From: a virus
Lineage: Duplodnaviria > Heunggongvirae > Uroviricota > Caudoviricetes
Length of the DNA: 64,000 nucleotides
IMG/VR virus record: IMGVR_UViG_3300032731_000668
Span: 1 to 64,000 of that record
Direction: 5' to 3' (one strand)
Below, one piece after another: positions 32,911 to 59,563 of the stretch (position 1 is the stretch's first letter; every line of letters starts with the position of its first letter). Position numbers and translations under genes: made by a program. The notes beneath the pieces were generated by a model. It saw nothing but the letters and a program-made list of their open reading frames with translations. It ran no database searches and was not told the origin of the DNA.

Positions 32911-32916
32911 GCCAAA

Positions 32917-34625: not shown

Positions 34626-34628
34626 AAA

Positions 34629-37212: not shown

Positions 37213-37215
37213 ATT

Positions 37216-38773: not shown

Positions 38774-39473
38774 TGAAAAAGAATTCTTTAAGTCAATTAA
38801 AAATACTTGTAAGGTTATTTTTGATATAGGTTGCAGGGAAGATATATATTATATTAAAAATAGCGAAGGTAAAGAAATTTATTTATTTGAACCAAATCTT
38901 ATCTCTTTTAATAATTGTAAGAAAGAGATAAATGCTTTTATTAAAGAATATGGCACCAACTTGAATAAAATTCGTCTATATAACTTTGGAATAGGAAATA
39001 TAAGTGAGACCAGACACTATTATGCAGACACTCAATCATTCTTTAAAAGACATCCTTATCCAAGTGTTGATTTCAAGCCTTGTGTTGCTATCATCAAGAA
39101 GTTTTCCGAGTTTTTAAAAGAGAACGACATTAAGTTTATTGATTTTTTAAAAATAGATACAGAGGGCTGCGAACCAGATATATTGTTGGACGATATTGAA
39201 TTTATAAAAACTAAAGTTCAATATATTCAGTTCGAGTGGGCGACTACATGGTTTGATAGAGATGACAATATTGCTTTTGCAGATATATTTAATGAGTATA
39301 TAAATAATTTTGAATTTTGGTTTTTATATGATGAAGACCATCCTTTATCTAGCAAATATGAAGAAATGTTATCTTCTATAATAACCCAAGAAGATTTCGA
39401 AGAATTGAATGAGAATATTTGTTTGGGGTATGGATTAGATATCGTTATGATAAAAAGAAAGAGGAATAAATGA
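38739..39473 (+). CDS. FkbM-family methyltransferase (244 aa)
   Basis: FDIGC...YLFEPN and LKIDTEGCEPDIL signature. Confidence 0.75.
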   Translation: MFLCWRTMIRNSEKEFFKSIKNTCKVIFDIGCREDIYYIKNSEGKEIYLFEPNLISFNNCKKEINAFIKEYGTNLNKIRLYNFGIGNISETRHYYADTQSFFKRHPYPSVDFKPCVAIIKKFSEFLKENDIKFIDFLKIDTEGCEPDILLDDIEFIKTKVQYIQFEWATTWFDRDDNIAFADIFNEYINNFEFWFLYDEDHPLSSKYEEMLSSIITQEDFEELNENICLGYGLDIVMIKRKRNK

Positions 39474-40315: not shown

Positions 40316-41189
40316 AAAAGTTTACTGTTGTTTTATGTTTTTTAATGAACTTGAATTGTTAAAATTAAAGTTTGAAGAATTATATGATGCTGTTGACTAT
40401 TTCGTACTTTCGGAAAGTACAAAAACCCATAGCGGATTGGACAAACCATTATATTTTAAAGAAAACAAGCATTTATTTTCTAAATATACCGACAAAATTA
40501 TTCATCAGGTTGTTACAGATACACCCGCAAGCTTTCAGACTCTTATGAGTATGAATCCGATTAATAATTCTCATAGAAAAATAATTGACGATATAAAAAA
40601 ATCCTATTGGTTTGATAAAAAAGTAGAGGGCTATATACGAGACACATATGAAAAAGAAATGTTATTTCTACCCTTGACAAAATGTAAGGATTATGATATA
40701 ATTATTTTAGGTGATTGTGATGAGATTCCTAAAGCAAGTGCGATTAAGGAAATTCTAGGGAGTTTTGATGACAATCAGATTTATCATTTACAACATGATG
40801 TATTTTACTATTATTTAAATTTACGAAAGAATGAACCTTGGTATGGAAATATCATTCTGTCGTTTAGGAGTTTTACAATGAACTCATTTAATGAATTGCG
40901 CCACGCAAAGAGGGGAGTACTTATTGAAAATGGAGGATGGCATTTTTCCTATATGGGCGGACATGATAAGGTAAAACTTAAGATAGAGTCATTTGGTGAA
41001 CAAAGTTGTAATACAGAGAAGGTTAAAATCGAATTAAAAAATAGCATAGAAAATGCAGTAAATTTAAATAGAGATCTATATAATCGCCCGTGCAAATTTT
41101 GGATTGAAGAATTATCATATAAAACCCATCCTAAATATTTAGTTGACAACCAAGATGAATTTAAAAATTTTATTTATAAGGAGGTATAG
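40308..41189 (+). CDS. GT17-family glycosyltransferase (beta-1,4-GlcNAc-transferase-like) (293 aa)
   Basis: FMFFNELELLKLKFEEL..VDYFVLSES.KTHSG.DKPLYF matches the GT17 N-terminal signature. Confidence 0.75.
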   Translation: MDRKVYCCFMFFNELELLKLKFEELYDAVDYFVLSESTKTHSGLDKPLYFKENKHLFSKYTDKIIHQVVTDTPASFQTLMSMNPINNSHRKIIDDIKKSYWFDKKVEGYIRDTYEKEMLFLPLTKCKDYDIIILGDCDEIPKASAIKEILGSFDDNQIYHLQHDVFYYYLNLRKNEPWYGNIILSFRSFTMNSFNELRHAKRGVLIENGGWHFSYMGGHDKVKLKIESFGEQSCNTEKVKIELKNSIENAVNLNRDLYNRPCKFWIEELSYKTHPKYLVDNQDEFKNFIYKEV

Positions 41190-41831
41190 TTGAAATTCAC
41201 CGAACTATTCCCACTGATAACTTATATCAACTTAGATTCTCGTCAAGATAGAGATAGATTAGCCAAAAAAGAATTTGAAAAATTGGCTATAGATCCGACA
41301 AGAGTATCTGGAACAGTGATAAGAGCTACAGACAACCCTATGTGGAATGGAGTTTTAGGATGTACCTTATCCCATATCAGATGTTTAGAAATGGCATTGG
41401 AACAGAGACAAAACATATTTATTTTTGAAGATGATATAAAACTTGTTGATGACAGTTTTCAGGATATAGATAAGTGTTTCGATGAAATAAATAAAATAGA
41501 TTGGGACATGCTATATCTTGGAGGCAATGTCCTTAAACCAATATATCAAAAAACTGAACATGTTGGAAAACTCACCCATTGCCAAAGCACAGTAGCATAC
41601 GGAGTCAACAAAAATTTTTTAAAAAAACTAATATCATATATTCCAAGAAACAATATAATCCCGATCGATCTTGTCTATACAAATAAAGTAATTCCGAACA
41701 ATAATTGTTTTATCAGTATCCCTATGACTATAGTTCAAAGAGATTCTTTTAGCGATATAGAGGGAAAACAAGTACAGTATGAATCGTATCTTCAAAAAAG
41801 ATATAACAAAAATCTAATTTATTTAAAATAA
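41190..41831 (+). CDS. GT25-family (LPS/Lic2B-like) glycosyltransferase (213 aa, TTG start)
   Basis: ITYINLDSRQDRD...GVLGCTLSHIRCLE...IFIFEDDIKL. Confidence 0.65.
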   Translation: MKFTELFPLITYINLDSRQDRDRLAKKEFEKLAIDPTRVSGTVIRATDNPMWNGVLGCTLSHIRCLEMALEQRQNIFIFEDDIKLVDDSFQDIDKCFDEINKIDWDMLYLGGNVLKPIYQKTEHVGKLTHCQSTVAYGVNKNFLKKLISYIPRNNIIPIDLVYTNKVIPNNNCFISIPMTIVQRDSFSDIEGKQVQYESYLQKRYNKNLIYLK

Positions 41832-41846
41832 GGAGTATACTAATAT

Positions 41847-42713
41847 ATGAAAATTTATGATTGTTTCGGGTTTTTTAACGAACTAGATCTTCTAGAACTA
41901 CGTCTAGAAATGATGGCGCCTATAGTAGATCATTTTGTTATTACTGAATATACCATTACATATAAAGGAGACCCTAAGCCCCTATATTATAATGAAAATA
42001 AAGAAAGATATAAGAAATTTGAAGGTAAAATTATCCATCAAGTTATTGACGATGTTCCGATGGATTATGTTAATCTATCGTTAGATATGGGGAAAGACGA
42101 ACTACATACGCAAGTAATTGATCGTGTTATGAAAATGACTCATTTCCCCAAGACCCATGTTCCTTATGGAATCAATAGTTATGGAAAAGAATGTGTAATT
42201 AGAGCGCTGGGCGAATGTGCTGACGGAGATATTATAATGTATTCTGACTTGGACGAAATTCCGAACAACGTTACAGTGCAACAGATTATTGAAAATTTTG
42301 ATCACAGAAATATATATAATTTACGCCAAAAAATGTATTATTATTATATGAATTGTGAAAAAAATGAAATGTGGAATGGGGGATGGCTTATGGACTGGCA
42401 TAATTTTAACAAAATACCTGTCTCCGAGCAAAAGGTTAAACGCTATGGGGAATTTGTATACAATGGGGGTTGGCATTTTGGATTCTTGGGAGGGTCAGAA
42501 GGAATAAGAGCAAAGATGATGACGTGTGATGAGCCTTCATTTAATATCCCCGAACTTTTGAAAAATATTGAATATAGAGTTGAAAATTGTCAAACATGCG
42601 GAGTAGATATTTACAATAGAAGTGCAAAGTTTAATTTTGTTAGTGTGGAAGAAATGCCACAGTATGTTCAGGACAATTATGAAAAATATGAAAAATACTT
42701 TCGGTTCAAATAA
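41847..42713 (+). CDS. GT17-family glycosyltransferase, paralog (288 aa)
   Basis: YDCFGFFNELDLLELRLEMM..VDHFVITEY.ITYKGDPKPLYY. Confidence 0.75.
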   Translation: MKIYDCFGFFNELDLLELRLEMMAPIVDHFVITEYTITYKGDPKPLYYNENKERYKKFEGKIIHQVIDDVPMDYVNLSLDMGKDELHTQVIDRVMKMTHFPKTHVPYGINSYGKECVIRALGECADGDIIMYSDLDEIPNNVTVQQIIENFDHRNIYNLRQKMYYYYMNCEKNEMWNGGWLMDWHNFNKIPVSEQKVKRYGEFVYNGGWHFGFLGGSEGIRAKMMTCDEPSFNIPELLKNIEYRVENCQTCGVDIYNRSAKFNFVSVEEMPQYVQDNYEKYEKYFRFK

Positions 42714-42737
42714 AAAATCATTGAGGAGTATATTATA

Positions 42738-43718
42738 GTGTTATTACCAGATTATATTAGAAAAGTTTTCGTTACAGGAGGAGCGGGATTTATTGGAAGC
42801 CATGTTGTAGATATGTTGCTAGAAGGAGGGTATCAAGTTACTGCATTTGATAATCTATCCACCGGTAAAAAATGCTGGATTGAGCAACATCTTGATAACG
42901 ATAATTTTCAATTTATACAAGCTGAATTACTAAGTTTGGATGACGTAAAAAATTCAATGCAGGGAAGCGATTTGGTTTGGCACTTAGCCGCCAATACAAA
43001 TATCCCAATAGGTTTTACAAAGACTGACATTGATCTAAAAAGCAATGTAATTGGCACCTATAACGTATTAGAATCTATGCGCTTAAATAATATTCAGCCT
43101 ATACTATTCTCATCAACTGGAGCGATATATGGCGACTTATGCAAAAAGAATTCCGTGACGGAAAATGTTGGACCAATTTTGCCAGTATCTTTATATGGAG
43201 GTAGCAAATTAGGATGTGAAGGGTTTATTGCCGCATATTGTAGTCTATTTAATCTAAGGGCATGGATGTTTAGATTTGGGAATGTTGTTGGTGGTCGTAT
43301 GAAGCGCGGGGCGATTTATGATTTTATTAAGAAGTTAAATACAAACTCCGCAGAACTAGAAATATTGGGAGACGGTAAACAAGAAAAGAATTATTTTCTT
43401 GTAGAAGAATGTATTGATGGAATGATCTATGCGTTAAAAAACGCTAAACTTACTGATGAAAATCCTTGTGATATTTTTAATTTAGGAGCTGATTCGACCA
43501 CAAGAGTCACTACAATAGCCCAACTAGTTATTGAAGGAATGAAGTTAAAAAATGTGGGTACCTATTTTACGGGCGGTGAAAAGGGATGGGAGGGTGATCA
43601 ACCCCAAGTCCATATACTTTCTAATAAAATGCATGGTTTAGGCTGGCAGACAAAACATACTTCAAATGAGGCCGTAAGAATAGCCATAAAAAGGTTGTTA
43701 AAAGAATATGAAAAATAA
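42738..43718 (+). CDS. NAD-dependent sugar epimerase/dehydratase (GalE/SDR family) (326 aa, GTG start)
   Basis: VTGGAGFIGSHV Rossmann motif and YGGSKLGCE (YxxxK). Confidence 0.85.
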   Translation: MLLPDYIRKVFVTGGAGFIGSHVVDMLLEGGYQVTAFDNLSTGKKCWIEQHLDNDNFQFIQAELLSLDDVKNSMQGSDLVWHLAANTNIPIGFTKTDIDLKSNVIGTYNVLESMRLNNIQPILFSSTGAIYGDLCKKNSVTENVGPILPVSLYGGSKLGCEGFIAAYCSLFNLRAWMFRFGNVVGGRMKRGAIYDFIKKLNTNSAELEILGDGKQEKNYFLVEECIDGMIYALKNAKLTDENPCDIFNLGADSTTRVTTIAQLVIEGMKLKNVGTYFTGGEKGWEGDQPQVHILSNKMHGLGWQTKHTSNEAVRIAIKRLLKEYEK

Positions 43719-44544
43719 AACAATAGCGGTAATATTTAGCAAAAATAGAGCAATGCAATTAGATTGTTGCCTAAAAACTTTTTATAGGGAATGCCTAGAT
43801 GCAGATAAGATCAATGTATTTATCTTATACACTACAACAAACAAAAATCATGAAAGAGCATATGACATTCTTGAACAAGAATATCCTGACGTAAGTTTCA
43901 TTAAAGAAAGTAATTTCAAAGAAGATTTATTAGAAATTACATCAGGGAATGTTCACCTCTTATTCATTGTTGACGACACCATCTTTATCGATGAATTTTA
44001 TATTGCCGATATGACCGACTCTCTTGCATATCGCCACAACAAATATACTTTGGGTGTGAGTCTGCGTCTTGGTACAAACACCACATACTGTTATCCCCTA
44101 AGCAAAACTCAACAAATTCCTAAACTAATAAATGGGTGGTATGGACTTCAAAAATTTGACTGGACGAAAGCAGAGTACGATTTTAATTATCCACTAGAAT
44201 TGTCATCTAGCCTTTATAGATATAATGACTTAAAATTTATTTTGGAACAAACCTATTATAATAATCCAAATGAATTAGAATATTTATTAAGTATTAATTC
44301 GGTGGTTGTAAAAAAGGATTATTTATTATGTTATGAAAATTCTATGGCATTTTCTAATCCGCTTAACAAAGTTCAAAATACGAATAACAATAAATTCGCA
44401 ATTGAATCAATACATACCCCAGAATTTCTTTTATCAATGTTTCTAGATGAATTCAGAATAGAAACAACTATGTTTGAAGAATTTATGCCTTCGGGATGCC
44501 ACGAAGAAATAGAATTCTTATTTATAAAGGAGAAAAATGACTAA
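43708..44544 (+). CDS. hypothetical protein, possible GT-A fold (278 aa)
   Basis: ORF overlapping the previous stop; weak glycosyltransferase-like N-terminus. Confidence 0.5.
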   Translation: MKNKTIAVIFSKNRAMQLDCCLKTFYRECLDADKINVFILYTTTNKNHERAYDILEQEYPDVSFIKESNFKEDLLEITSGNVHLLFIVDDTIFIDEFYIADMTDSLAYRHNKYTLGVSLRLGTNTTYCYPLSKTQQIPKLINGWYGLQKFDWTKAEYDFNYPLELSSSLYRYNDLKFILEQTYYNNPNELEYLLSINSVVVKKDYLLCYENSMAFSNPLNKVQNTNNNKFAIESIHTPEFLLSMFLDEFRIETTMFEEFMPSGCHEEIEFLFIKEKND

Positions 44545-44983
44545 AAACTCTATATCAATCATTCTTGCTGTTCATAATCAAGAAAAACTTATTGGAGATG
44601 TTATAAAGGGAATTTTTAATAACATGTCAAACAATGTAATAGATATGTTTGTAATTCTTGAGGACTGTACAGATAATTCTGAAAATGAAATTTTAGTTGC
44701 TTTAGCAAAGCATAAAAAAGACGGTTTCTTTGATGTAAAGTTAGTGTATTCAGACTATAACAACAAATTAATAGCAAACAATATAGGATGTCAATCGTCA
44801 GAGAATGAATATTCTTTAATAGTTCCAGATAATATGATTATCGATGAGATGGATTTTGACAAAAGATTGTTGGAATCATTTGAATCAAGTAAGACCTTTA
44901 TAGAGGCTAGGGAGGGAAATATTTTGGTATTGTTGAAAAATAGTGAATTACCAGAATTGAATTTTGACGGAGTAGAACTATGA
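44537..44983 (+). CDS. short GT2-like protein (148 aa)
   Basis: ISIILAVHNQEKLIGDVIKGI GT2-like start. Confidence 0.5.
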   Translation: MTKNSISIILAVHNQEKLIGDVIKGIFNNMSNNVIDMFVILEDCTDNSENEILVALAKHKKDGFFDVKLVYSDYNNKLIANNIGCQSSENEYSLIVPDNMIIDEMDFDKRLLESFESSKTFIEAREGNILVLLKNSELPELNFDGVEL

Positions 44984-45759
44984 GTTTAAAAGAATTATCA
45001 AAAAAAGACATAGATAAATTTTGGGACAGTGTTGTAAAAAATGAAAGTAATAATTGTTGGGACTGGCGTGGAATTAAAGACAGGAACAACAGGGGAATAA
45101 TGTTTGCGGTGAATAAAAAAAATATTGTTTATAGTGCCGCACATATTTCATTGTTTTTGAATCGCAACATAGATGTTAGTGGTACACCGATAAGAAGATT
45201 GTGTGAAAATATGTGGTGCTGTAAGCCAGATCATTTGGTTATAAAGAAAAAAGATTTGAGTATACCTTTAGATATTGTTTTGACAAAAAAACGATTAAGA
45301 AATTTTTGGGCACGAGTAAAAATAAAAGATAAAGATGAATGTTGGGAATGGCAAGGATGCAAGGATAAAAAGGGTTATGGACAAATTAATTTAAATTATA
45401 AAACTTATAGGACGCACAGATTATCCTATATGATAAAACACAATTTAAGTTATATTTCTGGCGGAATGTGTGTTTTACATAAATGCGATAATCCCGTCTG
45501 TGTTAATCCCGACCACTTATGGCTTGGCACCAATTTTGATAATGTTCAAGATCGCCATGCAAAAGGAAGAAGTAGTGCTTCTAAAGGTGAATCTAGCCAT
45601 TTTCATAAACTCAATGAGAAAACGGTAAGAAAAATTAGGCAAGATTATAAAACCGGTAATTTTACAACAAGAAAGCTTGCTGTCAAATATAATACTTCGA
45701 AATCAAATATAGGCCACATTGTTCACAATAAAACATGGAGGGACATATCAATTGAGTAA
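44980..45759 (+). CDS. HNH homing endonuclease (tandem HNH_3-like repeats) (259 aa)
   Basis: Two CWxW...C.NxxCxNPDHL modules (CKPDHLVI, CVNPDHLWLGTNFDNVQDR). Confidence 0.8.
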   Translation: MSLKELSKKDIDKFWDSVVKNESNNCWDWRGIKDRNNRGIMFAVNKKNIVYSAAHISLFLNRNIDVSGTPIRRLCENMWCCKPDHLVIKKKDLSIPLDIVLTKKRLRNFWARVKIKDKDECWEWQGCKDKKGYGQINLNYKTYRTHRLSYMIKHNLSYISGGMCVLHKCDNPVCVNPDHLWLGTNFDNVQDRHAKGRSSASKGESSHFHKLNEKTVRKIRQDYKTGNFTTRKLAVKYNTSKSNIGHIVHNKTWRDISIE

Positions 45760-46585
45760 AAGAAAACGTACAAAGTATATAAATCTTGCAGAACCATTGG
45801 TAAGTGTAATAGTTCCGATTTATAATAGATTTAATTTTTTAGTCTTAACATTACAGTCTTTAAAAAATCAATCATATGATAATATTCAAGTTGTATGTGT
45901 GAATGATGGTGGCAAAAGTGCTGAGAAATATATTAAGGATTTAAATGATCCAAGATTTGAATACTATGAACACGAGGTCAACGGTGGATTGCCGAAGGCC
46001 CGTAATACAGCCTTAAAACACGCAAAGGGTTCTTATATTTCATTATTAGATTCAGATGATATTTATATGAAATATGCAATAGAATTTAGGATGTATATGA
46101 TGAAGAAGTTAAATGCCGAAATAGTTTTTACAAGATCTTTGCAAAACATTATGGATAAAGTAAAATTGCCGAATGGACAGGAAGTGTATAAAACTATTCA
46201 CTCCCAATTGTACTGGAATTCTGGGTTTTCTCGTGATCTTCTCTTAATCCAAAATGTTTCGCCGTGTTGCAATGTTTGTTTTTCTAGAAAATCCTGGGAA
46301 GATTCGGGTTATTGGTTCGATGAAACTATGACTAGTTCAGAGGATCATGATTTTTGGTGTGCTCTGAGTAGAAAGCATGACTTTGAGCCATTAGAATTGC
46401 TTGATACAGAATGTTCGCTTCGCCGAGACGGCAGTAATATGACGGGGACAATTAACTTTGTTCCAAACTGGATTAAAATTTTTAAAAAATGGAGACATAC
46501 CGCAGAAGATTTAGACTATGTTACGGATGCCCAAAATCGTATTTTGCAATCTGTCAACATTGACCCAAAAGAATATGGACTTTAA
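45752..46585 (+). CDS. family 2 glycosyltransferase (277 aa, TTG start)
   Basis: VSVIVPIYNRFNFLVLTLQSLKNQSY...VNDGG; start moved to the TTG with a GGAGGG RBS. Confidence 0.75.
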   Translation: MSKRKRTKYINLAEPLVSVIVPIYNRFNFLVLTLQSLKNQSYDNIQVVCVNDGGKSAEKYIKDLNDPRFEYYEHEVNGGLPKARNTALKHAKGSYISLLDSDDIYMKYAIEFRMYMMKKLNAEIVFTRSLQNIMDKVKLPNGQEVYKTIHSQLYWNSGFSRDLLLIQNVSPCCNVCFSRKSWEDSGYWFDETMTSSEDHDFWCALSRKHDFEPLELLDTECSLRRDGSNMTGTINFVPNWIKIFKKWRHTAEDLDYVTDAQNRILQSVNIDPKEYGL

Positions 46586-46601
46586 GGACTTATAGAGAAA
46601 T

Positions 46602-47531
46602 ATGACACCTATGAATGACTTAAAGGGAATGAAATATGGACTATTGACGGTCTTGCATAAAGTTAGTCGTCCAAGTTGGGCAAAAAATAAAAGTATTTAT
46701 TGGTTTTGTAGATGTGATTGTGGAAAAGAATTAATTATTTCTGCGTCTCGACTGAGGAGTAAGGGAAAACGGTCGTGTGGATGTGCACGATACAATGATT
46801 TAAGTGGAAAGATATTTGGGATTTTAACAGTTCTTATGGAGTATGGAAAAGATAAGAACGGGAAAAGGCTATGGATATGCAAGTGTGAGTGCGGAAATGA
46901 AAAAGAAGTAAAAGGAAGTTCCTTAAAATCCGGGAATACAAAATCTTGCGGGTGTTTAAGTAAAAATATGTTCCTGTCTAGCGCCGAGGATTTAGTTGAA
47001 CGAAGATTTGAGAGATTGGTTGTTCTAGAGATTGTTAAGGCTAATAAAACAGGATCTCATTGGTTATGTCAATGCGATTGCGGGAATAAAAAGGTTATTG
47101 CCGCAAAAAATTTAAAGCAGGGGTATACAAAGTCTTGCGGGTGTTTAAAAAAAGAAAGAGTAAGCGCTGCCCACAGATTAGAGGTATCGGAGGCGGCATT
47201 TAATGCAGTATTTTATGAATATAAAAGCAGCGCAAAAGCAAGGGGTTTTGAATTTCTTTTAAGTAAGAATAAATTTCGTATACTGACAGAACAAAATTGT
47301 TATTATTGTGGCTGTTCGCCAAGCAATGTCAGAAAAGCACAAAACAATAATGGAAACTATATTTATAGCGGAATAGACAGGGTTGATAATTTCAAAGGAT
47401 ACACAATAAAAAATACTGTGCCTTGTTGTAAAGATTGCAATTGGGCAAAAAAAGACAAGTCTTTGGGAGAATTTAAAAATTGGGTTAAATTAATTTATAA
47501 AAATTTTATTAAAAACAAGGAGCAAGAATGA
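46602..47531 (+). CDS. HNH-type endonuclease with repeated SCGC zinc-finger-like modules (309 aa)
   Basis: Three KRSCGC/KSCGC repeats; C-terminal YYCGC...IDRVDN...CCKDCNWAK HNH-like. Confidence 0.6.
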   Translation: MTPMNDLKGMKYGLLTVLHKVSRPSWAKNKSIYWFCRCDCGKELIISASRLRSKGKRSCGCARYNDLSGKIFGILTVLMEYGKDKNGKRLWICKCECGNEKEVKGSSLKSGNTKSCGCLSKNMFLSSAEDLVERRFERLVVLEIVKANKTGSHWLCQCDCGNKKVIAAKNLKQGYTKSCGCLKKERVSAAHRLEVSEAAFNAVFYEYKSSAKARGFEFLLSKNKFRILTEQNCYYCGCSPSNVRKAQNNNGNYIYSGIDRVDNFKGYTIKNTVPCCKDCNWAKKDKSLGEFKNWVKLIYKNFIKNKEQE

Positions 47532-48754
47532 ATCTCGTTTACGTGTACGCGGACCAGCCACAAACTGAAAATTGTTCAAAATGGAATTGTTATTATCCAG
47601 CGGAAGCGGTCAATAGAACTAAAGATCATCGTGCTAGTATTATGCACGTTAATCAATTCTCACAAAATACTTCAGAAGTAAATAAAATGTGTGCAAAGGC
47701 CGATATTCTTATCATTGAAAGAAATTTATTTGGCGACGTGCTTACTTTTATGACTTATTGGCGCATTAGAAATAAAACTGTATTGGCAATTTTTGATGAT
47801 GGTTATGATTGTATGACGGAAGACAATCCTGCATATGCATTTTGGCATCGAAATGAAATAAAAGTTATAGCGAACAATATTGCCAACAGTACTCTTAACC
47901 AAATGAATTCTCAAAAACAAAACAATGTTTTATGGAATAATATCCCTATGGAAGATAGAGACAAAATGATTGCGTTAGCTACATCAATGTTTGAAGGGAA
48001 GATGCCCATAGGACCAGAAACTAAAGTTTCAGATATTCCCTTTATGTCACAATTCAAATGGGGTTTAAAAATAGCAAAAGGAATACAAGTTCCGTCTAAG
48101 CGATTAGCTAATGACTGGAAAAAATATAACAAAACTTATTTTGTACATAATTATCTTGATATCAAACAATATATGAATGTTGAACCATTAATAAAACACG
48201 ATGATATATTTATTGGTTGGTGCGGAAGCCTGACTCACCTGCCCAGTTTTGTTGAAAGTGGCGCTATAGAAGCAATTAAAAACATTGTCGCTAAATACAA
48301 TAATGTAAAACTATTAATAGGTGGAGACAAAAAAGTATTTGATGCAATAGACATTCCAGAGGATAAGAAAATATTTCAAAAATATGTTCCTCATGAGCAA
48401 TGGACTAGCCTGTTAAAATCTATCGATATAGGATTGGCGCCATTGGCAACTGTTTATGATCGCAGACGCAGTTGGATTAAGGCACTTGAATATATGGCTC
48501 TTAAGACACCATGGATTGCATCAGACTTTCCTCCATATAAAGAATTACAAGGTTACGGAAAAATAGTTCAAAATTCAGTTGCTTCATGGGAAAATGCATT
48601 AGCGGACATGATTGACAATTTGCAAGACCATAGAGATAAAGCAGCAGCCGAACCATATGACTTTGCATTAACTCAAACCACCGACAAGAATATCTTGAAA
48701 ACTATTGCCTTATACCAAAAAATTATTGATGCGCCTTATCGCTGGCCAGCTTGA
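47528..48754 (+). CDS. GT-B fold glycosyltransferase (GT4-like) (408 aa)
   Basis: C-terminal EQWTSLLKSIDIGLAPL...IKALEYMALKTPWIASD resembles the GT4 EX7E region. Confidence 0.65.
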   Translation: MNLVYVYADQPQTENCSKWNCYYPAEAVNRTKDHRASIMHVNQFSQNTSEVNKMCAKADILIIERNLFGDVLTFMTYWRIRNKTVLAIFDDGYDCMTEDNPAYAFWHRNEIKVIANNIANSTLNQMNSQKQNNVLWNNIPMEDRDKMIALATSMFEGKMPIGPETKVSDIPFMSQFKWGLKIAKGIQVPSKRLANDWKKYNKTYFVHNYLDIKQYMNVEPLIKHDDIFIGWCGSLTHLPSFVESGAIEAIKNIVAKYNNVKLLIGGDKKVFDAIDIPEDKKIFQKYVPHEQWTSLLKSIDIGLAPLATVYDRRRSWIKALEYMALKTPWIASDFPPYKELQGYGKIVQNSVASWENALADMIDNLQDHRDKAAAEPYDFALTQTTDKNILKTIALYQKIIDAPYRWPA

Positions 48755-51313: not shown

Positions 51314-52579
51314 ATGAAAGAATTTTTTGAAAATTTCTTAAAAATATTACAAGAAAACCAGGTTCTTTTGACCACATTAGGTATCGGTGGTGCTGGAACA
51401 ATTATAATGTGGTTGAAGGGTGTGCCCCAAACATTTTTCAATTTATTAAAAAGAGAATTTACAACCGAGATGACTATCACTAGTCAAAATATTTCATTTT
51501 TTAATGTTATAAAATTGTTAGAAAAAACCTACGCAGATAAAAAATGGAGAAAATTAAAAGTTATGAACGGAAGATGGGGGGCTGAAGAAACTGTTCTTGG
51601 GATTGGATATGGACATCATACTTTGATATACAAAAAAAACCTTCTTTTTATAACCTTGGTAAAAGAATCTGCAAATCAAACCAATTATGACAAAGATTCA
51701 CTAACTTTTTTAAAGTTGGGCAGAGACTATGGACTTTTTAAACAAATTATAAGTGATGCTGATGAAATAGCAGAAGATAAAAGTTCTAACAAAATATACA
51801 AAATGGAGGACGGATGGCGCTATGTAAAAGACCAGAAAAAAAGGGCTTTAAGTAGTGTGTTTTTAGAAAAAACTAAGAAGAAATATTTATTAGAAACCAT
51901 AGATAAATTTATATCTAGCGAAGAATGGTATCTTTCACATGGTATTCCTTATCAATTAGGAATATTGTTATATGGTTCGCCTGGAACAGGTAAGACTAGC
52001 TTAATTAAGGCAATAGCGGCATATTTAAACTACTCAATTTATTATTTACCTAGTTCAAGATTATACAAAATTGAAAAAGCAGTGTCTTTATTGCCAGACA
52101 ATTCTATTTTGGTGATTGAAGATATTGATACTAATGATATTACTAATAGAAGAGACAATGGATGGGATCAACCAGACGTACCCGAAGGTGCAAGTGGGAC
52201 TGCTCCAACAACATCCAATAACAAATCTTCTGATGATAGAGACTTTGAAACTTTTTTGAAGATGGGATTGTCCGAGATACTAAATTCTTTAGATGGCATT
52301 TTTGCTACTCACGGAAGAATTTTAATTGCTACCACAAACTACCTAGAATCATTGGATTCTGCATTAATTCGTCCTGGCAGAATAGATATAAAAATAGAAG
52401 TAGGATATGTAAACAACGAAGTATTGAAAGAGTTTTGCAATAGTTTCTTTCCCGAAAACAAAATTAATTTTGATGAAATAAAGATTAAGAAAAATAAACT
52501 TACCGTAGCATTATTGCAAAATATGATACTTGAAGGTAAAACATTACAAAATATTTTAGACTTTGTAGAAACCCAATAA
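51314..52579 (+). CDS. BCS1-like AAA+ ATPase with N-terminal TM segment (421 aa)
   Basis: Walker A GSPGTGKTS, Walker B LVIEDIDT; BCS1-type LSEILNSLDGIF...ATTNYLESLDSALIRPGRIDIKIEVGY. Confidence 0.8.
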   Translation: MKEFFENFLKILQENQVLLTTLGIGGAGTIIMWLKGVPQTFFNLLKREFTTEMTITSQNISFFNVIKLLEKTYADKKWRKLKVMNGRWGAEETVLGIGYGHHTLIYKKNLLFITLVKESANQTNYDKDSLTFLKLGRDYGLFKQIISDADEIAEDKSSNKIYKMEDGWRYVKDQKKRALSSVFLEKTKKKYLLETIDKFISSEEWYLSHGIPYQLGILLYGSPGTGKTSLIKAIAAYLNYSIYYLPSSRLYKIEKAVSLLPDNSILVIEDIDTNDITNRRDNGWDQPDVPEGASGTAPTTSNNKSSDDRDFETFLKMGLSEILNSLDGIFATHGRILIATTNYLESLDSALIRPGRIDIKIEVGYVNNEVLKEFCNSFFPENKINFDEIKIKKNKLTVALLQNMILEGKTLQNILDFVETQ

Positions 52580-53391: not shown

Positions 53392-54111
53392 ATGATAATA
53401 TATTTAACGACCAATAATATAAAAGGTAAAGTATACGTCGGCAAGCTGGTTGACGAAAGTAAGTCAACTTATCTCGGTTCTGGAACATGTGTTGGACGAG
53501 CGATCAAGCAATACGGTAAAGAAAATTTTAGCAGAATAACCTTAGAAGGCGGAATTACTGACCATGATTATTTGTGCAAAAGAGAAATTTATTGGATAGA
53601 ATTCTATGATTCTACTAATCCAGAGATAGGATATAACCTTAGCGAAGGCGGACGCGGAGGTTATTCTGGATGTAAACATACGCCAGAAACACTTGAAAAA
53701 ATGTCCGAAGCACAAAAGGGCGAAAACCACCCCATGTATGGGAAAAGAGGAAAAGAAACAGGTATGTTTGGAAAACACCATACGGAAGAGGCGCGTAAAA
53801 AAATGTCTGAAGCAAACAAAGGCAAAAATCATCCAATGTACGGAAAACATCACACAGAAGAAGCATGTAAAAACATGTCTAAGTCGGCCAGAAATAGACC
53901 TCCTGCGTCTGAAGAAACATGCAAGAAAATATCGGAATCGAAAAGGGGAATAAATAATCCCAATGTCCTTGAAAAGGGAATGGTGTTGAATGTTTTAAAA
54001 CTATTGAAAGATAATGTTTCTATGAAAAATATAACTAAAGAATTAAAAGTTTGCAATAGAACTATCCACAAAGTTAAAAACGGTGGCTATGATGATATTT
54101 ATGATTTGTGA
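53392..54111 (+). CDS. GIY-YIG homing endonuclease with NUMOD3 repeats (239 aa)
   Basis: IIYLTTNNIKGKVYVGKL...YLGSG GIY-YIG core; repeated GKHHTEEARKKMSEANKG NUMOD3-like modules. Confidence 0.85.
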   Translation: MIIYLTTNNIKGKVYVGKLVDESKSTYLGSGTCVGRAIKQYGKENFSRITLEGGITDHDYLCKREIYWIEFYDSTNPEIGYNLSEGGRGGYSGCKHTPETLEKMSEAQKGENHPMYGKRGKETGMFGKHHTEEARKKMSEANKGKNHPMYGKHHTEEACKNMSKSARNRPPASEETCKKISESKRGINNPNVLEKGMVLNVLKLLKDNVSMKNITKELKVCNRTIHKVKNGGYDDIYDL

Positions 54112-54173: not shown

Positions 54174-55091
54174 GTGAATAAATCTTTTATTGAATTAGAA
54201 AAATATTATGAATTAAAATCCATTGATTGTACTAAGGCGACCCTTTTTTATTATAAAAATACACTTGATAAATTTGTTTTATATTTTGATATAAAAAACA
54301 TTAGTGATTTATCAAATATAAAATCCGAGGATATACAACAGTACATGTATTTCTTAGCCAATAATAAAAATGCTAAAAATTCTAATACTGCAAAAAATTC
54401 CGCCAATGCTCATTTTCGGGTTATTAAAGCTTTCTGTAACTGGTTAATAGAACAAGATTATCTTGCAAAATCACCATGTGAAGGTATTAAACAATTTAAG
54501 ATAGCTAAAGAAATAAAATTTTATTTAAAGAAAGATGAAATAAAATCTATTTTGTTGAATTGTAGAAGCGCAAAAGATAAACTTATAATTGCTCTATTAT
54601 TATATACCGGTATTCGTGTTGGGGAAATATCCAAGATAAAAATTTCTGATATTGACGATAACCATCTTTTGATTCACGGCAAGGGACGTAAGGAGAGAAA
54701 TGTAATTCTGATTCCTTATATTATAGATTTATTAGGAAAATACTTAGAAACAAGATCAGATGAAAACGAATTTTTACTTGTTTCTAGAAAGAATTTTGGA
54801 AAAAGGTCAAGGGAATTACACAGTGTTACACCCCAAGCTGTCAGAGATGTTATTAAAAAAATAGCCAAAAGATCTGACATTGATACAAATAGAATAAATA
54901 ACATTACGCCCCATACATTTAGACGAACGTTTGCTGTCAATCTTGCCAAAAATGGACACGCTTCTTCTTTTCAAATTCAAAAAGCATTGGGGCATTCAAA
55001 TATTCAAACTACCCAAATTTATCTTGAGGCGGCCGGAGCCGAGATTTCAGATTCGGCATTATTAGGTCAGGTTGTGCCTATTGGAATATAA
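54174..55091 (+). CDS. tyrosine recombinase/integrase (XerC/D-like) (305 aa, GTG start)
   Basis: C-terminal catalytic region HTFRRTFAV...LGHSNIQTTQIYL (R..HxxR..Y); GGAGG RBS. Confidence 0.85.
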   Translation: MNKSFIELEKYYELKSIDCTKATLFYYKNTLDKFVLYFDIKNISDLSNIKSEDIQQYMYFLANNKNAKNSNTAKNSANAHFRVIKAFCNWLIEQDYLAKSPCEGIKQFKIAKEIKFYLKKDEIKSILLNCRSAKDKLIIALLLYTGIRVGEISKIKISDIDDNHLLIHGKGRKERNVILIPYIIDLLGKYLETRSDENEFLLVSRKNFGKRSRELHSVTPQAVRDVIKKIAKRSDIDTNRINNITPHTFRRTFAVNLAKNGHASSFQIQKALGHSNIQTTQIYLEAAGAEISDSALLGQVVPIGI

Positions 55092-56722: not shown

Positions 56723-56776
56723 AAGCATAAAACGTACTTAATCGGCAATATGTTGCCGATTAAAAAAGGAGAAATA

Positions 56777-56992
56777 ATGACATTAACAAACGAAGATTTA
56801 AATAATAGATTTACATATCATAAGCCAAATGAAAAAACTATAATGACCCATCAACTAATTCGTAATTTTGGTTTAGAATTAGCCAATGAATTAAACAATC
56901 TTTTGCCCGATGGACGAGAAAAGTCTTTGGCAATTACAAAATTAGAAGAAGTAGTTATGTGGGCAAACGCTTCTTTAGCGAGGAATAGCTAA
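56777..56992 (+). CDS. small conserved protein, tandem paralog A (71 aa)
   Basis: AAAAAGGAGAAATA RBS; about 60% identical to 57041-57256. Confidence 0.5.
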   Translation: MTLTNEDLNNRFTYHKPNEKTIMTHQLIRNFGLELANELNNLLPDGREKSLAITKLEEVVMWANASLARNS

Positions 56993-57040: not shown

Positions 57041-57256
57041 ATGACATTAGACGAAAAAGATTTATTAAATAGATTTACTTATCATGCACCAAACGAAAGA
57101 GATGTATTAAACCATGAAGCAATTCGAAATTTTGGATTAGATTTAGCGAGAATATTGAATGACTTATTACCAGACTCAAGAGAAAAGTCATTAGCTATGA
57201 CAAAACTTGAAGAAGCTATAATGTGGGCAAATGCTGCAATAGCGAGGAATAAGTAA
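57041..57256 (+). CDS. small conserved protein, tandem paralog B (71 aa)
   Basis: AAAGGAAAAATAAA RBS; RFTYHxPNE...AIRNFGL.LA..LN.LLPD.REKSLA.TKLEE..MWANA shared with paralog A. Confidence 0.5.
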   Translation: MTLDEKDLLNRFTYHAPNERDVLNHEAIRNFGLDLARILNDLLPDSREKSLAMTKLEEAIMWANAAIARNK

Positions 57257-57309: not shown

Positions 57310-57843
57310 ATGAATAGAAAAAAATACATTAATAGATACGATATTCAGAAACGTGTCGAAGAATTGGCGATTGAAATAGATTGTGATTATAGCGGTTTGG
57401 ATGATCGTATTTGTATTGTCGGCATTTTGCGTGGCGCTTTTATTTTCTTGGCGGATATGTCAAGATTATTAGATACGAGACACACTATTGATTTTATTTC
57501 AATTGGTAGTTATGATAAAGATAATTCAGGAAATGTTAGGTTATTGATGGATACAAGAACCGATGTTTCAGGAAAACATGTTCTTATTGTAGAAGACATT
57601 ATTGATAGCGGCAAAACAATTAATTATCTTGTTGACTTATTTTTAAATCGAAATGTAGCAAGTGTAAAAACATGTACCTTATTTAGAAAAAATGGATCAA
57701 AAGAAACCTCTAACATAGATTATATTGGATTTGATGTCCCTAAAGAACATTGGCTCGTTGGTTATGGCTTAGATTTTGATAATAAATATAGAACATTACC
57801 AGATGTCGAAATATTAAAACAATCAGATGAGGAGCTAAATTAA
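57310..57843 (+). CDS. hpt: hypoxanthine(-guanine) phosphoribosyltransferase (177 aa)
   Basis: PRPP-binding motif VLIVEDIIDSGKT and LVGYGLDFDNKYRTLP match bacterial Hpt closely. Confidence 0.9.
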   Translation: MNRKKYINRYDIQKRVEELAIEIDCDYSGLDDRICIVGILRGAFIFLADMSRLLDTRHTIDFISIGSYDKDNSGNVRLLMDTRTDVSGKHVLIVEDIIDSGKTINYLVDLFLNRNVASVKTCTLFRKNGSKETSNIDYIGFDVPKEHWLVGYGLDFDNKYRTLPDVEILKQSDEELN

Positions 57844-58910
57844 TGCATAGAGGCGCATATATTATTGTCGGTGCACAATGGGGCGATGAGGCAAAAGGAA
57901 TGGTGAGTGCTTATTTGTCCATAAGAGAAAATGCTAAAATTGTTTGTAGGGCTGGAACTGGACCAAACGCAGAACATGGTGTTTTTCTAAAAGATGAAAA
58001 AACATATATAAAAACAAATCAGTTGCCTTTAGGTTGGATATTCAATCCTGATATTCAAATTCGTATTGGGTCTGGTGTAGCCGTTGATCCAGTCAAACTA
58101 ATGTATGAAATAAATAAATATAAATTACATAATCGTGTAAAAATAGATTATCGTTGTCCTATTATTACATCAGAACACATTAAAGCAGAGAAAAACAGCA
58201 AGGGAATGGCCTCTATTGGCTCAACATTTAGTGGAACCGGTTATTGTCGAGCAGACTTTATTTTACGAAAAGCAAAGCAGGCACGAGACATAGAAGCATT
58301 AAAAGACTATATAACGGATTGTAGCACTGAGATAAATAATGAGGCTAGAACTGAAATTGTAATTATAGAGTCTTCACAAGGAACATTTCTTTCATTAGCT
58401 TTAAGCGAAGATTATCCAAACACAACCTCCGATAATGTTACTGCAATGGCTGCCGCCGATGACGTATTGTTAAATTGGAAAAACTTAAAAGAAGTAATTT
58501 TAGTTGTAAAAGCATTACCTACTCGCGAAGGTAGCGGAGATATAGGAGCAAGAGAATTATCGTCTGAAGAAATTATTTCTAAAGGGTTGGTTGAACCAAG
58601 TTCAATTGGCGGGAAAACAAGAAGAAAAGCCGAGGGAATTAATTTCGACATGCTAAAATATGCAGTAGAAGTAAATGGGGCAACACAAATCGCACTTACA
58701 TTTTGTGATCATTATGACCCTCAAATTAAAAATGCTAAAGCAATAAGTAAAATTACTCCAAGAATATGGGAATTGATTTATGAAATCGAAACTTCTACTG
58801 GTGTACCGGTTACTATTCTAAATACAGGTAAACCGTATAATTGTATTATTGATCGAACTGAAAATTCTGTTGATTGGGAGAGTATAGATAACAATATTCT
58901 GAAATTATGA
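57843..58910 (+). CDS. purA: adenylosuccinate synthetase family protein, short form (PurA-like; PurZ candidate) (355 aa)
   Basis: N-terminal P-loop IIVGAQWGDEAKG (PurA VxGxQWGDEGKG); conserved blocks IGSGVAVDP, ESSQGTFLS; about 75 aa shorter than bacterial PurA; guanine-specificity TKLD region reads TFCD. Confidence 0.85.
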   Translation: MHRGAYIIVGAQWGDEAKGMVSAYLSIRENAKIVCRAGTGPNAEHGVFLKDEKTYIKTNQLPLGWIFNPDIQIRIGSGVAVDPVKLMYEINKYKLHNRVKIDYRCPIITSEHIKAEKNSKGMASIGSTFSGTGYCRADFILRKAKQARDIEALKDYITDCSTEINNEARTEIVIIESSQGTFLSLALSEDYPNTTSDNVTAMAAADDVLLNWKNLKEVILVVKALPTREGSGDIGARELSSEEIISKGLVEPSSIGGKTRRKAEGINFDMLKYAVEVNGATQIALTFCDHYDPQIKNAKAISKITPRIWELIYEIETSTGVPVTILNTGKPYNCIIDRTENSVDWESIDNNILKL

Positions 58911-59227
58911 CAAAATTTATAAGAAAATTTATGGGAATATTTAAAAAACCCGAAGCTAAAAAACCTGATGACAAATATACCAAAGTTTTTAGGCAATTGG
59001 TGCAAGCTCCTAAGATAGACAAAGACATTGCAAATCTTCGTCGGTTTGGTAAGGGATATGTGCTTTCCAATCCAGAGGAGGGTCTATTCTGGGGGAATGA
59101 TGAGAAAACAGCCATCAGGATTTACATGGATGAGGAAGCAGCTACTTTTGACCGAGACCGCTTGCCATCTTCCGATGGTTGGCGTGTTTTTTCGGTTGCA
59201 GTATTTTATACAGGCAAGAATAGTTAA
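58907..59227 (+). CDS. hypothetical protein (106 aa)
   Basis: ORF overlapping the previous stop. Confidence 0.5.
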   Translation: MTKFIRKFMGIFKKPEAKKPDDKYTKVFRQLVQAPKIDKDIANLRRFGKGYVLSNPEEGLFWGNDEKTAIRIYMDEEAATFDRDRLPSSDGWRVFSVAVFYTGKNS

Positions 59228-59233
59228 GATAAA

Positions 59234-59563
59234 ATGATTAAAATTTCAAAAAACAACAGGTGGCCTAGACCTAATAGTACTAGATTGCGTATGATGCATG
59301 AAAATAATCCTTGTTGTATTTGGTGTGGGGAAAAAACAGTTTTATATGAAAAATATATCGCGTATTTATCAGACGATGCGGCAACAGTAGACCATCTGTT
59401 TGTCAGAAAAGATCCTCGAAGAATATATTGCAAAAAACATGGAATTCCATCTTTACTTATTTTAGCTTGCCATAAGTGTAACCAAAGAAGAGACGATATG
59501 CTTTGGGAAAGATTTTGCAGAATAAAGAAAGTTGATATAAATTTTGATTTTGTTTATTGTTAG
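59234..59563 (+). CDS. HNH endonuclease (109 aa)
   Basis: CCIWCG...VDHLFVRKD...ACHKCNQRR HNH/zinc motif. Confidence 0.75.
   Translation: MIKISKNNRWPRPNSTRLRMMHENNPCCIWCGEKTVLYEKYIAYLSDDAATVDHLFVRKDPRRIYCKKHGIPSLLILACHKCNQRRDDMLWERFCRIKKVDINFDFVYC

What the first reader, a model, noticed from the sequence alone, without database searches (positions are those of the whole stretch)
57310..58910. HPRT plus a short PurA-family enzyme: purine-salvage module or candidate PurZ (2-aminoadenine pathway)
A high-confidence Hpt homolog sits directly upstream of, and is translationally coupled to, a 355-aa adenylosuccinate-synthetase-family protein. That protein is about 75 residues shorter than bacterial PurA, similar in size to archaeal PurA and phage PurZ. 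Its guanine-specificity region, which reads TKLD in E. coli PurA, reads TFCD here. This suggests an altered nucleotide-triphosphate preference, as reported for PurZ, which uses ATP/dATP and dGMP. Two readings are possible. One is an Hpt to IMP to adenylosuccinate salvage route that boosts A supply for a 70% AT genome. The other is a PurZ-like enzyme producing the 2-aminoadenine (Z) precursor. Either is a notable auxiliary metabolic module.
Basis: partly seen in the sequence, partly recalled or inferred. Interest (0 to 1): 0.75.

Follow-up and report, generated by a model that had tools for sequence, protein, structure and literature searches.

The report
Phage purine-salvage pair, not PurZ
A virus-like element carries two coupled genes, a hypoxanthine phosphoribosyltransferase and a short adenylosuccinate synthetase of the type found in Microgenomates-group bacteria, that most likely turn salvaged purine bases into the AMP precursor; it is not the enzyme that makes the alternative DNA base 2-aminoadenine.

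Summary
A canonical Hpt (57310-57843) overlaps by one base (TAATG) a 355-aa PurA-family gene (57843-58910) whose TKLD-equivalent motif reads TFCD.

The PurZ reading fails every sequence test I could run:
- The catalytic Asp13 is kept, whereas all PurZ/PurZ0 have Ser.
- The PurZ loop insertion is absent.
- The PurZ model scores 117 bits against a 300-bit cutoff.
- A neighbour-joining tree places the protein among Asp13-bearing short PurAs, away from PurZ/PurZ0.
- The structure model matches Pyrococcus PurA bound to GTP, IMP and hadacidin (TM 0.90-0.94).
- No DatZ, MazZ, DpoZ, DutZ or DmtZ homolog occurs in the window.

TFCD keeps the guanine-reading Asp. The Phe is shared with canonical-site relatives and with PurZ0.

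The protein belongs to a well-supported clade found in Woesebacteria/Microgenomates genomes and in phage-like contigs. There it sits beside other IMP-handling enzymes (phosphoribosyltransferases, GMP-reductase/IMPDH-family proteins), which points to IMP as substrate.

Best reading: an auxiliary purine-salvage module, hypoxanthine to IMP to adenylosuccinate, finished by a host PurB.

One point is unexplained. The clade has rewired aspartate-loop residues (T301, R303) and two new invariant glutamates.

This is a new member of a known kind, of modest interest.

The parts
57310..57843 (+). hpt: canonical bacterial-type hypoxanthine(-guanine) phosphoribosyltransferase, 177 aa
   Evidence: TIGR01203 scores 164.2 bits (cutoff 150) and PF00156 2e-26. 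It aligns full length to solved bacterial HPRTs, E 1e-35. The PRPP motif VLIVEDIIDSGKT and the C-terminal VGYGLDFDNKYRTLP are visible in the sequence. It is about 50-55% identical to Hpt of many bacterial phyla. GC3 is 0.208, like its neighbours.
57829..57845 (+). hpt/purA junction: GAGGAG ribosome-binding site inside the hpt 3' end, with TAATG stop/start overlap
   Evidence: Read directly from the sequence. Translational coupling is inferred from the 1-nt overlap.
57843..58910 (+). Short (355 aa) adenylosuccinate-synthetase-family protein with Asp13 retained, belonging to a CPR/phage-specific clade
   Evidence: PF00709 scores 2e-43. NF003295 (archaeal-type PurA) gives 294.6 bits (cutoff 368) and the PurZ model NF038379 gives 117 bits (cutoff 300). 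P. horikoshii PurA scores 231 bits against 42-55 bits for PurZ/PurZ0; with a family profile the scores are 320 against 66-89. The clade has 99% NJ bootstrap and lies outside the Ser13 PurZ clade. The model has pLDDT 94.3 and TM 0.90/0.94 to 5K7X.
58907..59227 (+). 106-aa ORF of unknown function whose start overlaps the purA stop (ATGA); membership in the module is doubtful
   Evidence: The overlap is visible in the sequence. It has no Pfam, NCBIfam or PADLOC hit. It has no homolog next to the PurA-like gene in the 18 related loci held at that stage, apart from the identical contig L001.

Best explanation
This is a two-gene auxiliary purine-salvage module on a virus-like element. Hpt condenses hypoxanthine (possibly also guanine) with PRPP to give IMP (or GMP). 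The co-translated short PurA then uses GTP and L-aspartate to convert IMP to adenylosuccinate. A host adenylosuccinate lyase (PurB; none is seen in the window) completes AMP synthesis. The effect is to channel salvaged purine bases into the adenylate pool during replication of a 69% A+T genome. The PurA gene is of the type found in Woesebacteria/Microgenomates (Candidate Phyla Radiation), so the host is probably such a bacterium. Shown here: gene identities, coupling, retention of the catalytic and IMP/GTP-contact residues, non-membership in PurZ, and recurrent linkage to IMP-handling enzymes. Inferred: the actual substrates, the use of host PurB, the benefit to replication and the identity of the host.
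For: 1. Hpt is above the curated equivalog cutoff.
2. The PurA-like protein keeps the E. coli-numbered residues Asp13, Asn38, His41, Thr129, Arg143, Gln224, Thr239, Arg304/305 and Asp333.
3. Its closest solved relative is P. horikoshii PurA, by sequence and by fold: 5K7X with GTP, IMP and hadacidin, TM 0.90/0.94, rmsd 1.6 A.
4. Its clade includes cellular genes annotated as adenylosuccinate synthetase in Candidatus Woesebacteria (905-kb contig) and in a Microgenomates bin.
5. Cellular gene contexts are purine-centred. L027 reads PRTase, then a GMPR/IMPDH-family gene, then the PurA-like gene, among ribosomal-protein and tRNA-synthetase genes. L010 reads APRT-like, then HPRT-like (4-nt overlap), then the PurA-like gene, with a PNP and a xanthine/uracil permease nearby.
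6. Phage-like relatives pair the same PurA with other IMP enzymes. A GMP-reductase-like gene lies directly upstream in L012/L013, whose PurA is 78% identical. An IMPDH lies directly downstream in L015, and a GMPR/IMPDH-family gene in L018.
7. Two other IMG/VR contigs (L054, L057) have hpt immediately followed by a canonical long PurA. This is an independent occurrence of the same pairing.
8. GC3 of both genes (0.208) equals that of neighbouring genes, so they are resident genes rather than assembly contamination.
Against: The protein is below the curated cutoff of every NCBIfam PurA equivalog (best 294.6 against 368). Its clade has lost two residues that are invariant in PurA and contact aspartate and the IMP 2'-OH: T301 is Gly here and variable in the clade, and R303 is Lys here and V/K/A/N in the clade. 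The clade has also gained invariant Glu at positions 40 and 273. Canonical aspartate binding is therefore not assured. No PurB was seen in the window. Only 64 kb (plus about 5 kb) of a contig of at least 168 kb was available. No enzyme of this clade has been assayed, as far as the searched literature shows.
Confidence: 0.75

Rival explanations
1. It is a PurZ or PurZ0-type enzyme that makes N6-succino-2-amino-2'-deoxyadenylate from dGMP, so the element would have a 2-aminoadenine (Z) genome.
For: It is short like PurZ. It shares Phe at the TKLD-equivalent position with PurZ/PurZ0 and Lys at position 303 with PurZ. The PHROG family it hits is labelled '2-aminooxy adenylosuccinate synthetase'.
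Against: Asp13 is retained, whereas Ser replaces it in 100% of 147 phage PurZ/PurZ0 sequences (PMC12884076 section 24; also PMC8515928) and in the three phage references aligned here (phiVC8, Ghobes, vB_BpsS-140), all of which fall in the Ser13 group of the tree (69 Ser13 sequences in all). It has Trp rather than Phe before the P-loop Gly. It lacks the 2-12-residue insertion after the R-V motif. The loop tip reads SSIGG rather than TTVT. The PurZ HMM scores 117 against a 300 cutoff. It lies outside the PurZ clade. There is no DatZ, MazZ, DpoZ, PrimPol, DutZ or DmtZ homolog by phmmer at E<=1, and no HD, MazG, dUTPase, PolA or NDT Pfam hit among 117 ORF scans. Its partners in relatives produce or consume ribonucleotide IMP.
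Confidence: 0.03
2. The enzyme has the PurA fold and phosphoryl-transfer chemistry but a changed second substrate or nucleotide. Its clade would carry out a ligation other than IMP + aspartate, for example with another amine donor, or acting on dIMP, XMP or GMP.
For: Active-site positions that are invariant in PurA and PurZ are changed in a clade-invariant way: G40E, T/S42G, V273E, T300I, and G130F/M. T301 and R303, which contact aspartate and the 2'-OH, have become variable (the R303 role is quoted in PMC8342488). The score is below all curated PurA cutoffs.
Against: It is found in reduced Microgenomates-group genomes, annotated as adenylosuccinate synthetase, in operons with purine PRTases and a GMPR-like enzyme. 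That is what a housekeeping PurA would look like. Whether it is their only PurA could not be checked. Invariant S298/S299, R304, R305 and K306 could rebuild an aspartate site. The fold superposes on the fully ligated archaeal enzyme at 1.6 A.
Confidence: 0.1
3. The enzymes are the same, but their role is counter-defence. The pair would rebuild the adenylate pool after host immunity degrades or deaminates ATP, analogous to phage NAD+ reconstitution pathways.
For: Two tandem Acb2/Tad1-hairpin sponge genes (67 and 76 bits; cutoff 27) lie directly upstream, 53 nt from hpt, on the same strand with no + strand terminator between them. Anti-defence genes tend to cluster (my own knowledge).
Against: The evidence is adjacency only. 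Relatives carry the PurA-like gene without Acb2-like neighbours. No PADLOC or literature link was found. A general metabolic boost explains the data equally well.
Confidence: 0.1

Closest known systems
Archaeal-type short adenylosuccinate synthetase (Pyrococcus horikoshii PurA, PDB 5K7X/2D7U; NCBIfam NF003295)
   Same: Same length class, without the roughly 75-residue insertions of bacterial PurA. About 38-40% identical. The model superposes at TM 0.90/0.94 and rmsd 1.6 A. Catalytic Asp13/His41, the IMP contacts and the guanine-reading Asp are conserved.
   Different: Scores 294.6 bits, below the 368-bit equivalog cutoff. G40E, S42G, V273E, T300I, T301G and R303K, plus a one-residue insertion in the aspartate loop.
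PurZ / PurZ0 (succino-2-amino-deoxyadenylate synthase of Z-genome phages; PDB 6FM1, 7ODX, 7VF6)
   Same: Same superfamily and similar size. Phe at the position after the Thr/Asn/Ser of the TKLD-equivalent motif. Phage-borne.
   Different: Asp rather than Ser at position 13. No loop insertion after R-V. A different aspartate-loop tip. 27-33% identical. Lies in a separate clade. No Z-cluster partner genes.
Cellular operons around the PurA-like gene in Microgenomates-group and related reduced genomes (PRTase / GMPR-like / PurA-like; loci L027 and L010)
   Same: The PurA clade is the same (57-60% identical). The logic is the same: an IMP-producing enzyme immediately upstream and overlapping or abutting the PurA-like gene.
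   Different: The window's Hpt is a canonical bacterial HPRT unrelated by BLAST to the PRTases of those operons. The viral pair was therefore assembled from two sources rather than copied as a unit.
hpt followed by canonical purA on IMG/VR contigs (L054, L057)
   Same: hpt is immediately followed by a PurA-family gene on a viral contig.
   Different: There the PurA is the long bacterial type (35-41% identical to E. coli PurA, 24-27% to the window protein).
Phage NAD+ reconstitution pathways (NARP1/NARP2; recalled from my own knowledge, not tested here)
   Same: Two-enzyme phage modules that rebuild a depleted nucleotide cofactor. This is the template for the counter-defence reading.
   Different: Different enzymes and a different metabolite. 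No experimental or comparative support here beyond adjacency to the Acb2/Tad1-like genes.

Membership tests
PurZ/PurZ0 | Ser replaces the catalytic Asp13 (E. coli PurA numbering) | tested here: not met
   The window reads GAQWGDEAKG with Asp. The three phage PurZ/PurZ0 references aligned here have Ser, and 69 sequences in the tree have Ser13. The literature reports 100% Ser in phage PurZ.
PurZ/PurZ0 | Insertion after the conserved R-V (S-2L A242-W250) that pushes Val towards C2' | tested here: not met
   PTREGSG has no insertion. phiVC8, Ghobes and vB_BpsS-140 carry 2-12 extra residues. The feature is described in PMC8342488.
PurZ/PurZ0 | Curated PurZ HMM NF038379 at or above 300 bits | tested here: not met
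   117.1 bits.
PurZ/PurZ0 | Phylogenetic placement inside the PurZ/PurZ0 clade | tested here: not met
   In the NJ tree of 130 sequences it sits in an Asp13 clade (99% bootstrap) with a canonical-site sister group (71.5%), away from the PurZ/PurZ0 references and the bulk of the Ser13 sequences. This is NJ only, not maximum likelihood.
PurZ/PurZ0 | Co-occurring Z-cluster genes (datZ, mazZ/DUF550 and dpoZ, or dutZ/dmtZ) | tested here: not met
   No phmmer hit at E<=1 in the window plus L001. No relevant Pfam family among 70 and 47 scanned ORFs. Caveat: only about 69 kb of a contig of at least 168 kb could be read.
PurZ/PurZ0 | 2-aminoadenine replaces adenine in the DNA | not testable with these tools
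   Requires nucleoside LC-MS or restriction/nanopore signal analysis.
Adenylosuccinate synthetase (PurA, EC 6.3.4.4) | PF00709 fold with the GDEGKG P-loop, catalytic Asp13 and His41 | tested here: met
   PF00709 at 2e-43. D, K and H are conserved. TM 0.90/0.94 to 5K7X.
Adenylosuccinate synthetase (PurA, EC 6.3.4.4) | IMP contacts Asn38, Thr129, Arg143', Gln224, Thr239 | tested here: met
   All are identical in the window protein and in at least 118 of 120 clade members.
Adenylosuccinate synthetase (PurA, EC 6.3.4.4) | Guanine-specific acidic residue (Asp333 of TKLD) | tested here: met
   Asp in TFCD. The clade has D (57) or E (63).
Adenylosuccinate synthetase (PurA, EC 6.3.4.4) | Aspartate-loop residues Thr301 and Arg303 | tested here: not met
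   Gly and Lys in the window. Both positions are variable in the clade, while R304, R305 and K306 are invariant. The loop alignment carries a 1-residue indel, so the assignment is approximate.
Adenylosuccinate synthetase (PurA, EC 6.3.4.4) | Score above a curated NCBIfam PurA equivalog cutoff | tested here: not met
   Best is NF003295 at 294.6 against 368. TIGR00184 gives 177.9 against 395.55.
Adenylosuccinate synthetase (PurA, EC 6.3.4.4) | IMP + Asp + GTP to adenylosuccinate activity | not testable with these tools
   Needs an enzyme assay or purA complementation.
Hypoxanthine phosphoribosyltransferase (TIGR01203) | Score above the equivalog cutoff, full-length match and PRPP-binding motif | tested here: met
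   164.2 bits against 150, covering residues 7-169 of 177. VLIVEDIIDSGKT is present. E 1e-35 to solved HPRTs.

The most novel reading that the evidence does not exclude
There are two non-exclusive novel readings. First, the window enzyme belongs to a CPR/phage-specific PurA clade that has dropped the canonical aspartate and 2'-OH contacts (T301, R303) and fixed two new active-site glutamates (E40, E273). It may therefore catalyse a ligation different from classical adenylosuccinate synthesis. Second, the Hpt-PurA pair sits directly behind two Acb2/Tad1 sponge genes and may be an 'adenylate reconstitution' counter-defence module on a phage of Candidate Phyla Radiation bacteria.
Probability: 0.12. 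Interest if true: 0.7.

Novelty: new member of a known kind. Interest (0 to 1): 0.3.

Why it matters
It removes a tempting false positive for Z-genome biology. Size and a non-TKLD motif do not identify PurZ, whereas Asp13 versus Ser13 does. It documents a purine-salvage auxiliary module on a large virus-like element whose PurA is of the Microgenomates/Woesebacteria type. That is a hint about hosts that, by general knowledge of CPR metabolism (not tested here), rely on salvage for nucleotides. It also flags an unassayed, widespread PurA clade with a rewired aspartate site that would be cheap to test biochemically.

Tried and rejected
- Megablast of 24 kb of the window against 50,697 phage records found only an 80-bp chance-level match, so no known relative exists.
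- Single-protein pattern scans of genome and viral collections found only two Chloroflexota loci and nothing viral. An alignment-based scan was needed.
- The promoter/terminator scan was no better than shuffles (39 against 34.6 expected), with no + strand terminator, so it did not define the operon.
- A search with the beta-clamp for host inference gave only 27%-identical cellular hits and was uninformative.
- No tRNA genes were found.
- PADLOC gave nothing for Hpt, PurA or the flanking small ORFs.
- Attempts to walk beyond the window showed that position 1 is a contig end. Only about 5 kb beyond position 64000 could be read, so the rest of the 168-kb contig could not be screened for Z-cluster, purB or structural genes.
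- The idea that hpt and purA were captured together from a CPR operon was rejected. The window Hpt has no BLAST similarity to the CPR PRTases and resembles ordinary bacterial Hpt.
- A slow MAFFT run timed out and was repeated with --auto.
- The literature search found no paper linking phage HPRT and PurA.

Full report
**Observation.** The two ORFs exist exactly as described: 57310-57843 (177 aa) and 57843-58910 (355 aa) on the + strand. The hpt stop and the purA start share one base (TAATG), with a GAGGAG eight bases upstream. The purA stop overlaps the start of a further 106-aa ORF (ATGA).

The first protein is a bona fide Hpt. It scores 164.2 bits on TIGR01203 against a cutoff of 150 and matches solved bacterial HPRTs full length at E 1e-35.

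The second protein is an adenylosuccinate-synthetase-family protein (PF00709, 2e-43). It is 77 residues shorter than E. coli PurA. The E. coli motif TKLD aligns with TFCD.

**Is it PurZ?** No, on every sequence-level criterion I could test.

[quoted passage not shown] The window protein reads GAQWGDEAKG: Asp, preceded by Trp as in PurA rather than Phe as in PurZ.
- It lacks the insertion after the R-V motif that PurZ, PurZ0 and the vB_BpsS-140 homolog carry.
- The curated PurZ model gives 117 bits against a cutoff of 300.
- Against solved structures, P. horikoshii PurA scores 231 bits, PurZ0 55 and PurZ 42-46. With a family profile the scores are 320 against 89, 80 and 66.
- An AlphaFold model (pLDDT 94.3) superposes best on P. 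horikoshii PurA bound to GTP, IMP and hadacidin (5K7X: TM 0.90/0.94, rmsd 1.6 A). PurZ0 gives 0.82/0.80 and PurZ 0.78/0.80.
- I built a neighbour-joining tree from 117 full-length representatives of the 1.8-billion-protein library, plus seven further family members and six reference sequences including the window protein. The window protein falls in a clade with 99% bootstrap in which all members have Asp13. That clade is sister (71.5%) to short PurAs with fully canonical active sites, and both sit among archaeal-type Asp13 enzymes. The PurZ/PurZ0 references and most of the 69 Ser13 sequences lie elsewhere in the tree.
- No homolog of DatZ, MazZ, DpoZ, PrimPol, DutZ or DmtZ was found in the window or in the 5 kb beyond it (phmmer, E<=1). 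Pfam scans of 70 and 47 ORFs show no HD, MazG, dUTPase, PolA or NDT family. The caveat is that only about 69 kb of a contig of at least 168 kb could be read.

**The TFCD argument.** The functionally important residue of TKLD is the Asp that reads guanine. It is retained here, and all 120 clade members have D or E at that position. The Lys is already absent in archaeal PurA (TMLD). The Phe is shared with the canonical-site sister group (signature ...RFD) and with PurZ0 (SFAD). From my own recollection of Tong et al. 2023, PurZ0 uses GTP; the bioRxiv paper likewise describes the later transition of PurZ to ATP/dATP. ATP-using PurZ has Asn at this position (NFCN), whose counterpart in S-2L (Q308) is said to clash with a guanine 2-amino group. 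TFCD is therefore not evidence for a changed NTP preference.

**What the protein is.** About 560 metagenomic proteins match at E<=1e-10, and the best 120 are 55-78% identical. Named members are annotated as adenylosuccinate synthetase in Candidatus Woesebacteria (905-kb contig) and in a Microgenomates-group bin.

Cellular gene contexts:
- L008 places it among a leucyl/isoleucyl-type tRNA-synthetase-family gene, a tRNA methyltransferase (MnmA-family) and other cellular genes.
- L010 reads APRT-like, then a divergent HPRT-like gene with a 4-nt overlap, then the PurA-like gene, with a PNP and a xanthine/uracil permease nearby.
- L027 lies among ribosomal-protein genes and reads PRTase, then a GMPR/IMPDH-family gene (343 aa), then the PurA-like gene.

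Contexts on phage-like contigs, which are full of small unknown ORFs, integrases, DNA methylases and primase-helicase genes:
- The 78%-identical relative has a 323-aa protein directly upstream that aligns full length to GMP reductase models.
- An IMG/VR contig has a 471-aa IMPDH starting one base after the PurA-like stop. Another has a 321-aa GMPR/IMPDH-family gene 12 nt downstream, followed within about 3 kb by ORFs that look like ThyX and dUTPase from their N-terminal sequences (not scanned against a family library). A third has a GMPR-like gene 5 kb away.
- Independently, two other IMG/VR contigs place hpt immediately upstream of a canonical long PurA.

The common denominator of all these partners is IMP. 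That is the comparative argument that this enzyme works on ribonucleotide IMP.

**Origin.** The window Hpt is about 50-55% identical to Hpt from many bacterial phyla and has no BLAST similarity to the PRTases of the CPR operons. The pair was therefore assembled on the element from two sources and converged on the cellular gene order. Both genes have GC3 of 0.208, like their neighbours. They are long-resident genes, not contamination.

**Mechanism proposed.** Hypoxanthine + PRPP gives IMP (Hpt). IMP + GTP + Asp gives adenylosuccinate (PurA-like). Adenylosuccinate is converted to AMP by a host PurB. This channels salvaged purines to adenylate for a 69% A+T genome. The enzyme identities and their coupling are shown. 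The substrates, the dependence on host PurB and the benefit to replication are inferred.

**What remains odd.** The clade keeps Asp13, Asn38, His41, Thr129, Arg143, Gln224, Thr239 and Arg304/305. It has nevertheless fixed G40E, T/S42G, V273E and T300I and replaced G130 with F/M. It has let T301 (G/E/K/A) and R303 (V/K/A/N) drift, and has a new invariant Lys at 306.

In E. coli PurA, R303 contacts the aspartate substrate and the IMP 2'-OH. From my own knowledge of the E. coli mutagenesis literature, T301 contacts aspartate. The protein is also below every curated PurA cutoff. I take this as a rewired aspartate site in a genuine PurA, because it sits in purine-salvage contexts in reduced Microgenomates-group genomes where it is annotated as the adenylosuccinate synthetase (I could not check whether those genomes carry a second PurA). 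A changed substrate cannot be excluded without an assay.

**Context.** Directly upstream, 53 nt from hpt, are two tandem Acb2/Tad1-hairpin genes (67 and 76 bits against a cutoff of 27). A counter-defence role for adenylate rebuilding is therefore conceivable, but it rests on adjacency alone. Relatives lack this neighbourhood.

The window contains no capsid or terminase hit. Its viral nature rests on gene content (integrase, homing endonucleases, methylases, a divergent clamp, a ligase) and on relatives in IMG/VR.

**Novelty.** PF00709 homologs in phages are already catalogued by the hundred. Hpt homologs occur on many IMG/VR contigs, and hpt-purA pairs exist there. This is a new member of a known kind of auxiliary nucleotide-metabolism module. 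Two modest points of interest remain: the Microgenomates-type origin of its PurA, and the unassayed active-site variant.

Noticed in passing
window 56750-56992 and 57041-57256 (+): Two tandem paralogous (69% identical) small ORFs with the Acb2/Tad1 hairpin domain (PF24729, 67 and 76 bits against a cutoff of 27). These are candidate sponges for cyclic-nucleotide immune signals, and they lie immediately upstream of hpt.
   Followed up: partly
window 22723-25091 (+): An EcoRI-type adenine methyltransferase (PF13651, 4e-119) overlaps by 4 nt a GmrSD_N+HNH protein that matches the PADLOC type II restriction enzyme model at 266 bits. This is an apparently complete R-M system carried by the element. 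GAATTC is not avoided (18 observed, 20 expected).
   Followed up: partly
window 28842-48754 (+): About 20 kb of back-to-back glycan-biosynthesis genes: a DegT aminotransferase, two NAD-dependent epimerase/dehydratases, several GT2 and GT17 glycosyltransferases and a GT1, plus methyltransferases. This is unusual in size for a phage. Related loci L012 and L016 (phage-like) and the cellular locus L027 also carry sugar-modification genes near the PurA-like gene: glycosyltransferases and methyltransferases in L012 and L027 (Pfam), and in L016 unscanned ORFs that look like sugar-nucleotide-modifying enzymes.
   Followed up: no
window 1-64000: Every sizeable ORF is on the + strand. GC skew is positive throughout, and A is 38.6% against T 30.2% on that strand. 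There are no tRNA genes. Window position 1 coincides with a contig end.
   Followed up: no
window 6860-7870, 20151-21284, 26100-27203, 51314-52579 (+): A highly divergent DNA polymerase III beta clamp (27% identical to the nearest cellular homolog), an ATP-dependent DNA ligase, an SPFH/Band7 protein and an AAA/BCS1_N ATPase with weak IetA similarity.
   Followed up: partly
window 59234-59563 (+) and 53392-54111 (+): Selfish nuclease-type genes flank the module. ORF109 has CxxC...DH...CHKCN motifs that I judge HNH-like by eye, with no Pfam hit. There is also a NUMOD3 homing-endonuclease-type protein. An integrase lies at 54174-55091, and relative L014 also has an integrase a few kb upstream of its PurA-like gene.
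   Followed up: no
proteins P0175, P0183, P0248 (also P0187, P0195, P0203, P0205, P0215, P0218, P0225, P0240, P0263); not in the window: Metagenomic Ser13 (PurZ-type) proteins of about 520-560 aa. The three that were scanned (P0175, P0183, P0248) carry an N-terminal P-loop nucleotide-kinase-like domain (AAA_18/AAA_17/AAA_33). This is a possible kinase-PurZ fusion of the Z pathway.
   Followed up: partly
window 56737-56764: A perfect 12-bp-stem palindrome (TTAATCGGCAAC / GTTGCCGATTAA region) straddles the start of the first Acb2/Tad1-like ORF. The terminator scan picked it up on the minus strand. It may be an operator or a regulatory hairpin.
   Followed up: no
PMC12884076 section 24: [quoted passage not shown] This seems inverted relative to PMC8342488 (PurZ uses ATP/dATP) and to the description of PurZ0 elsewhere. 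Care is needed when citing it.
   Followed up: no
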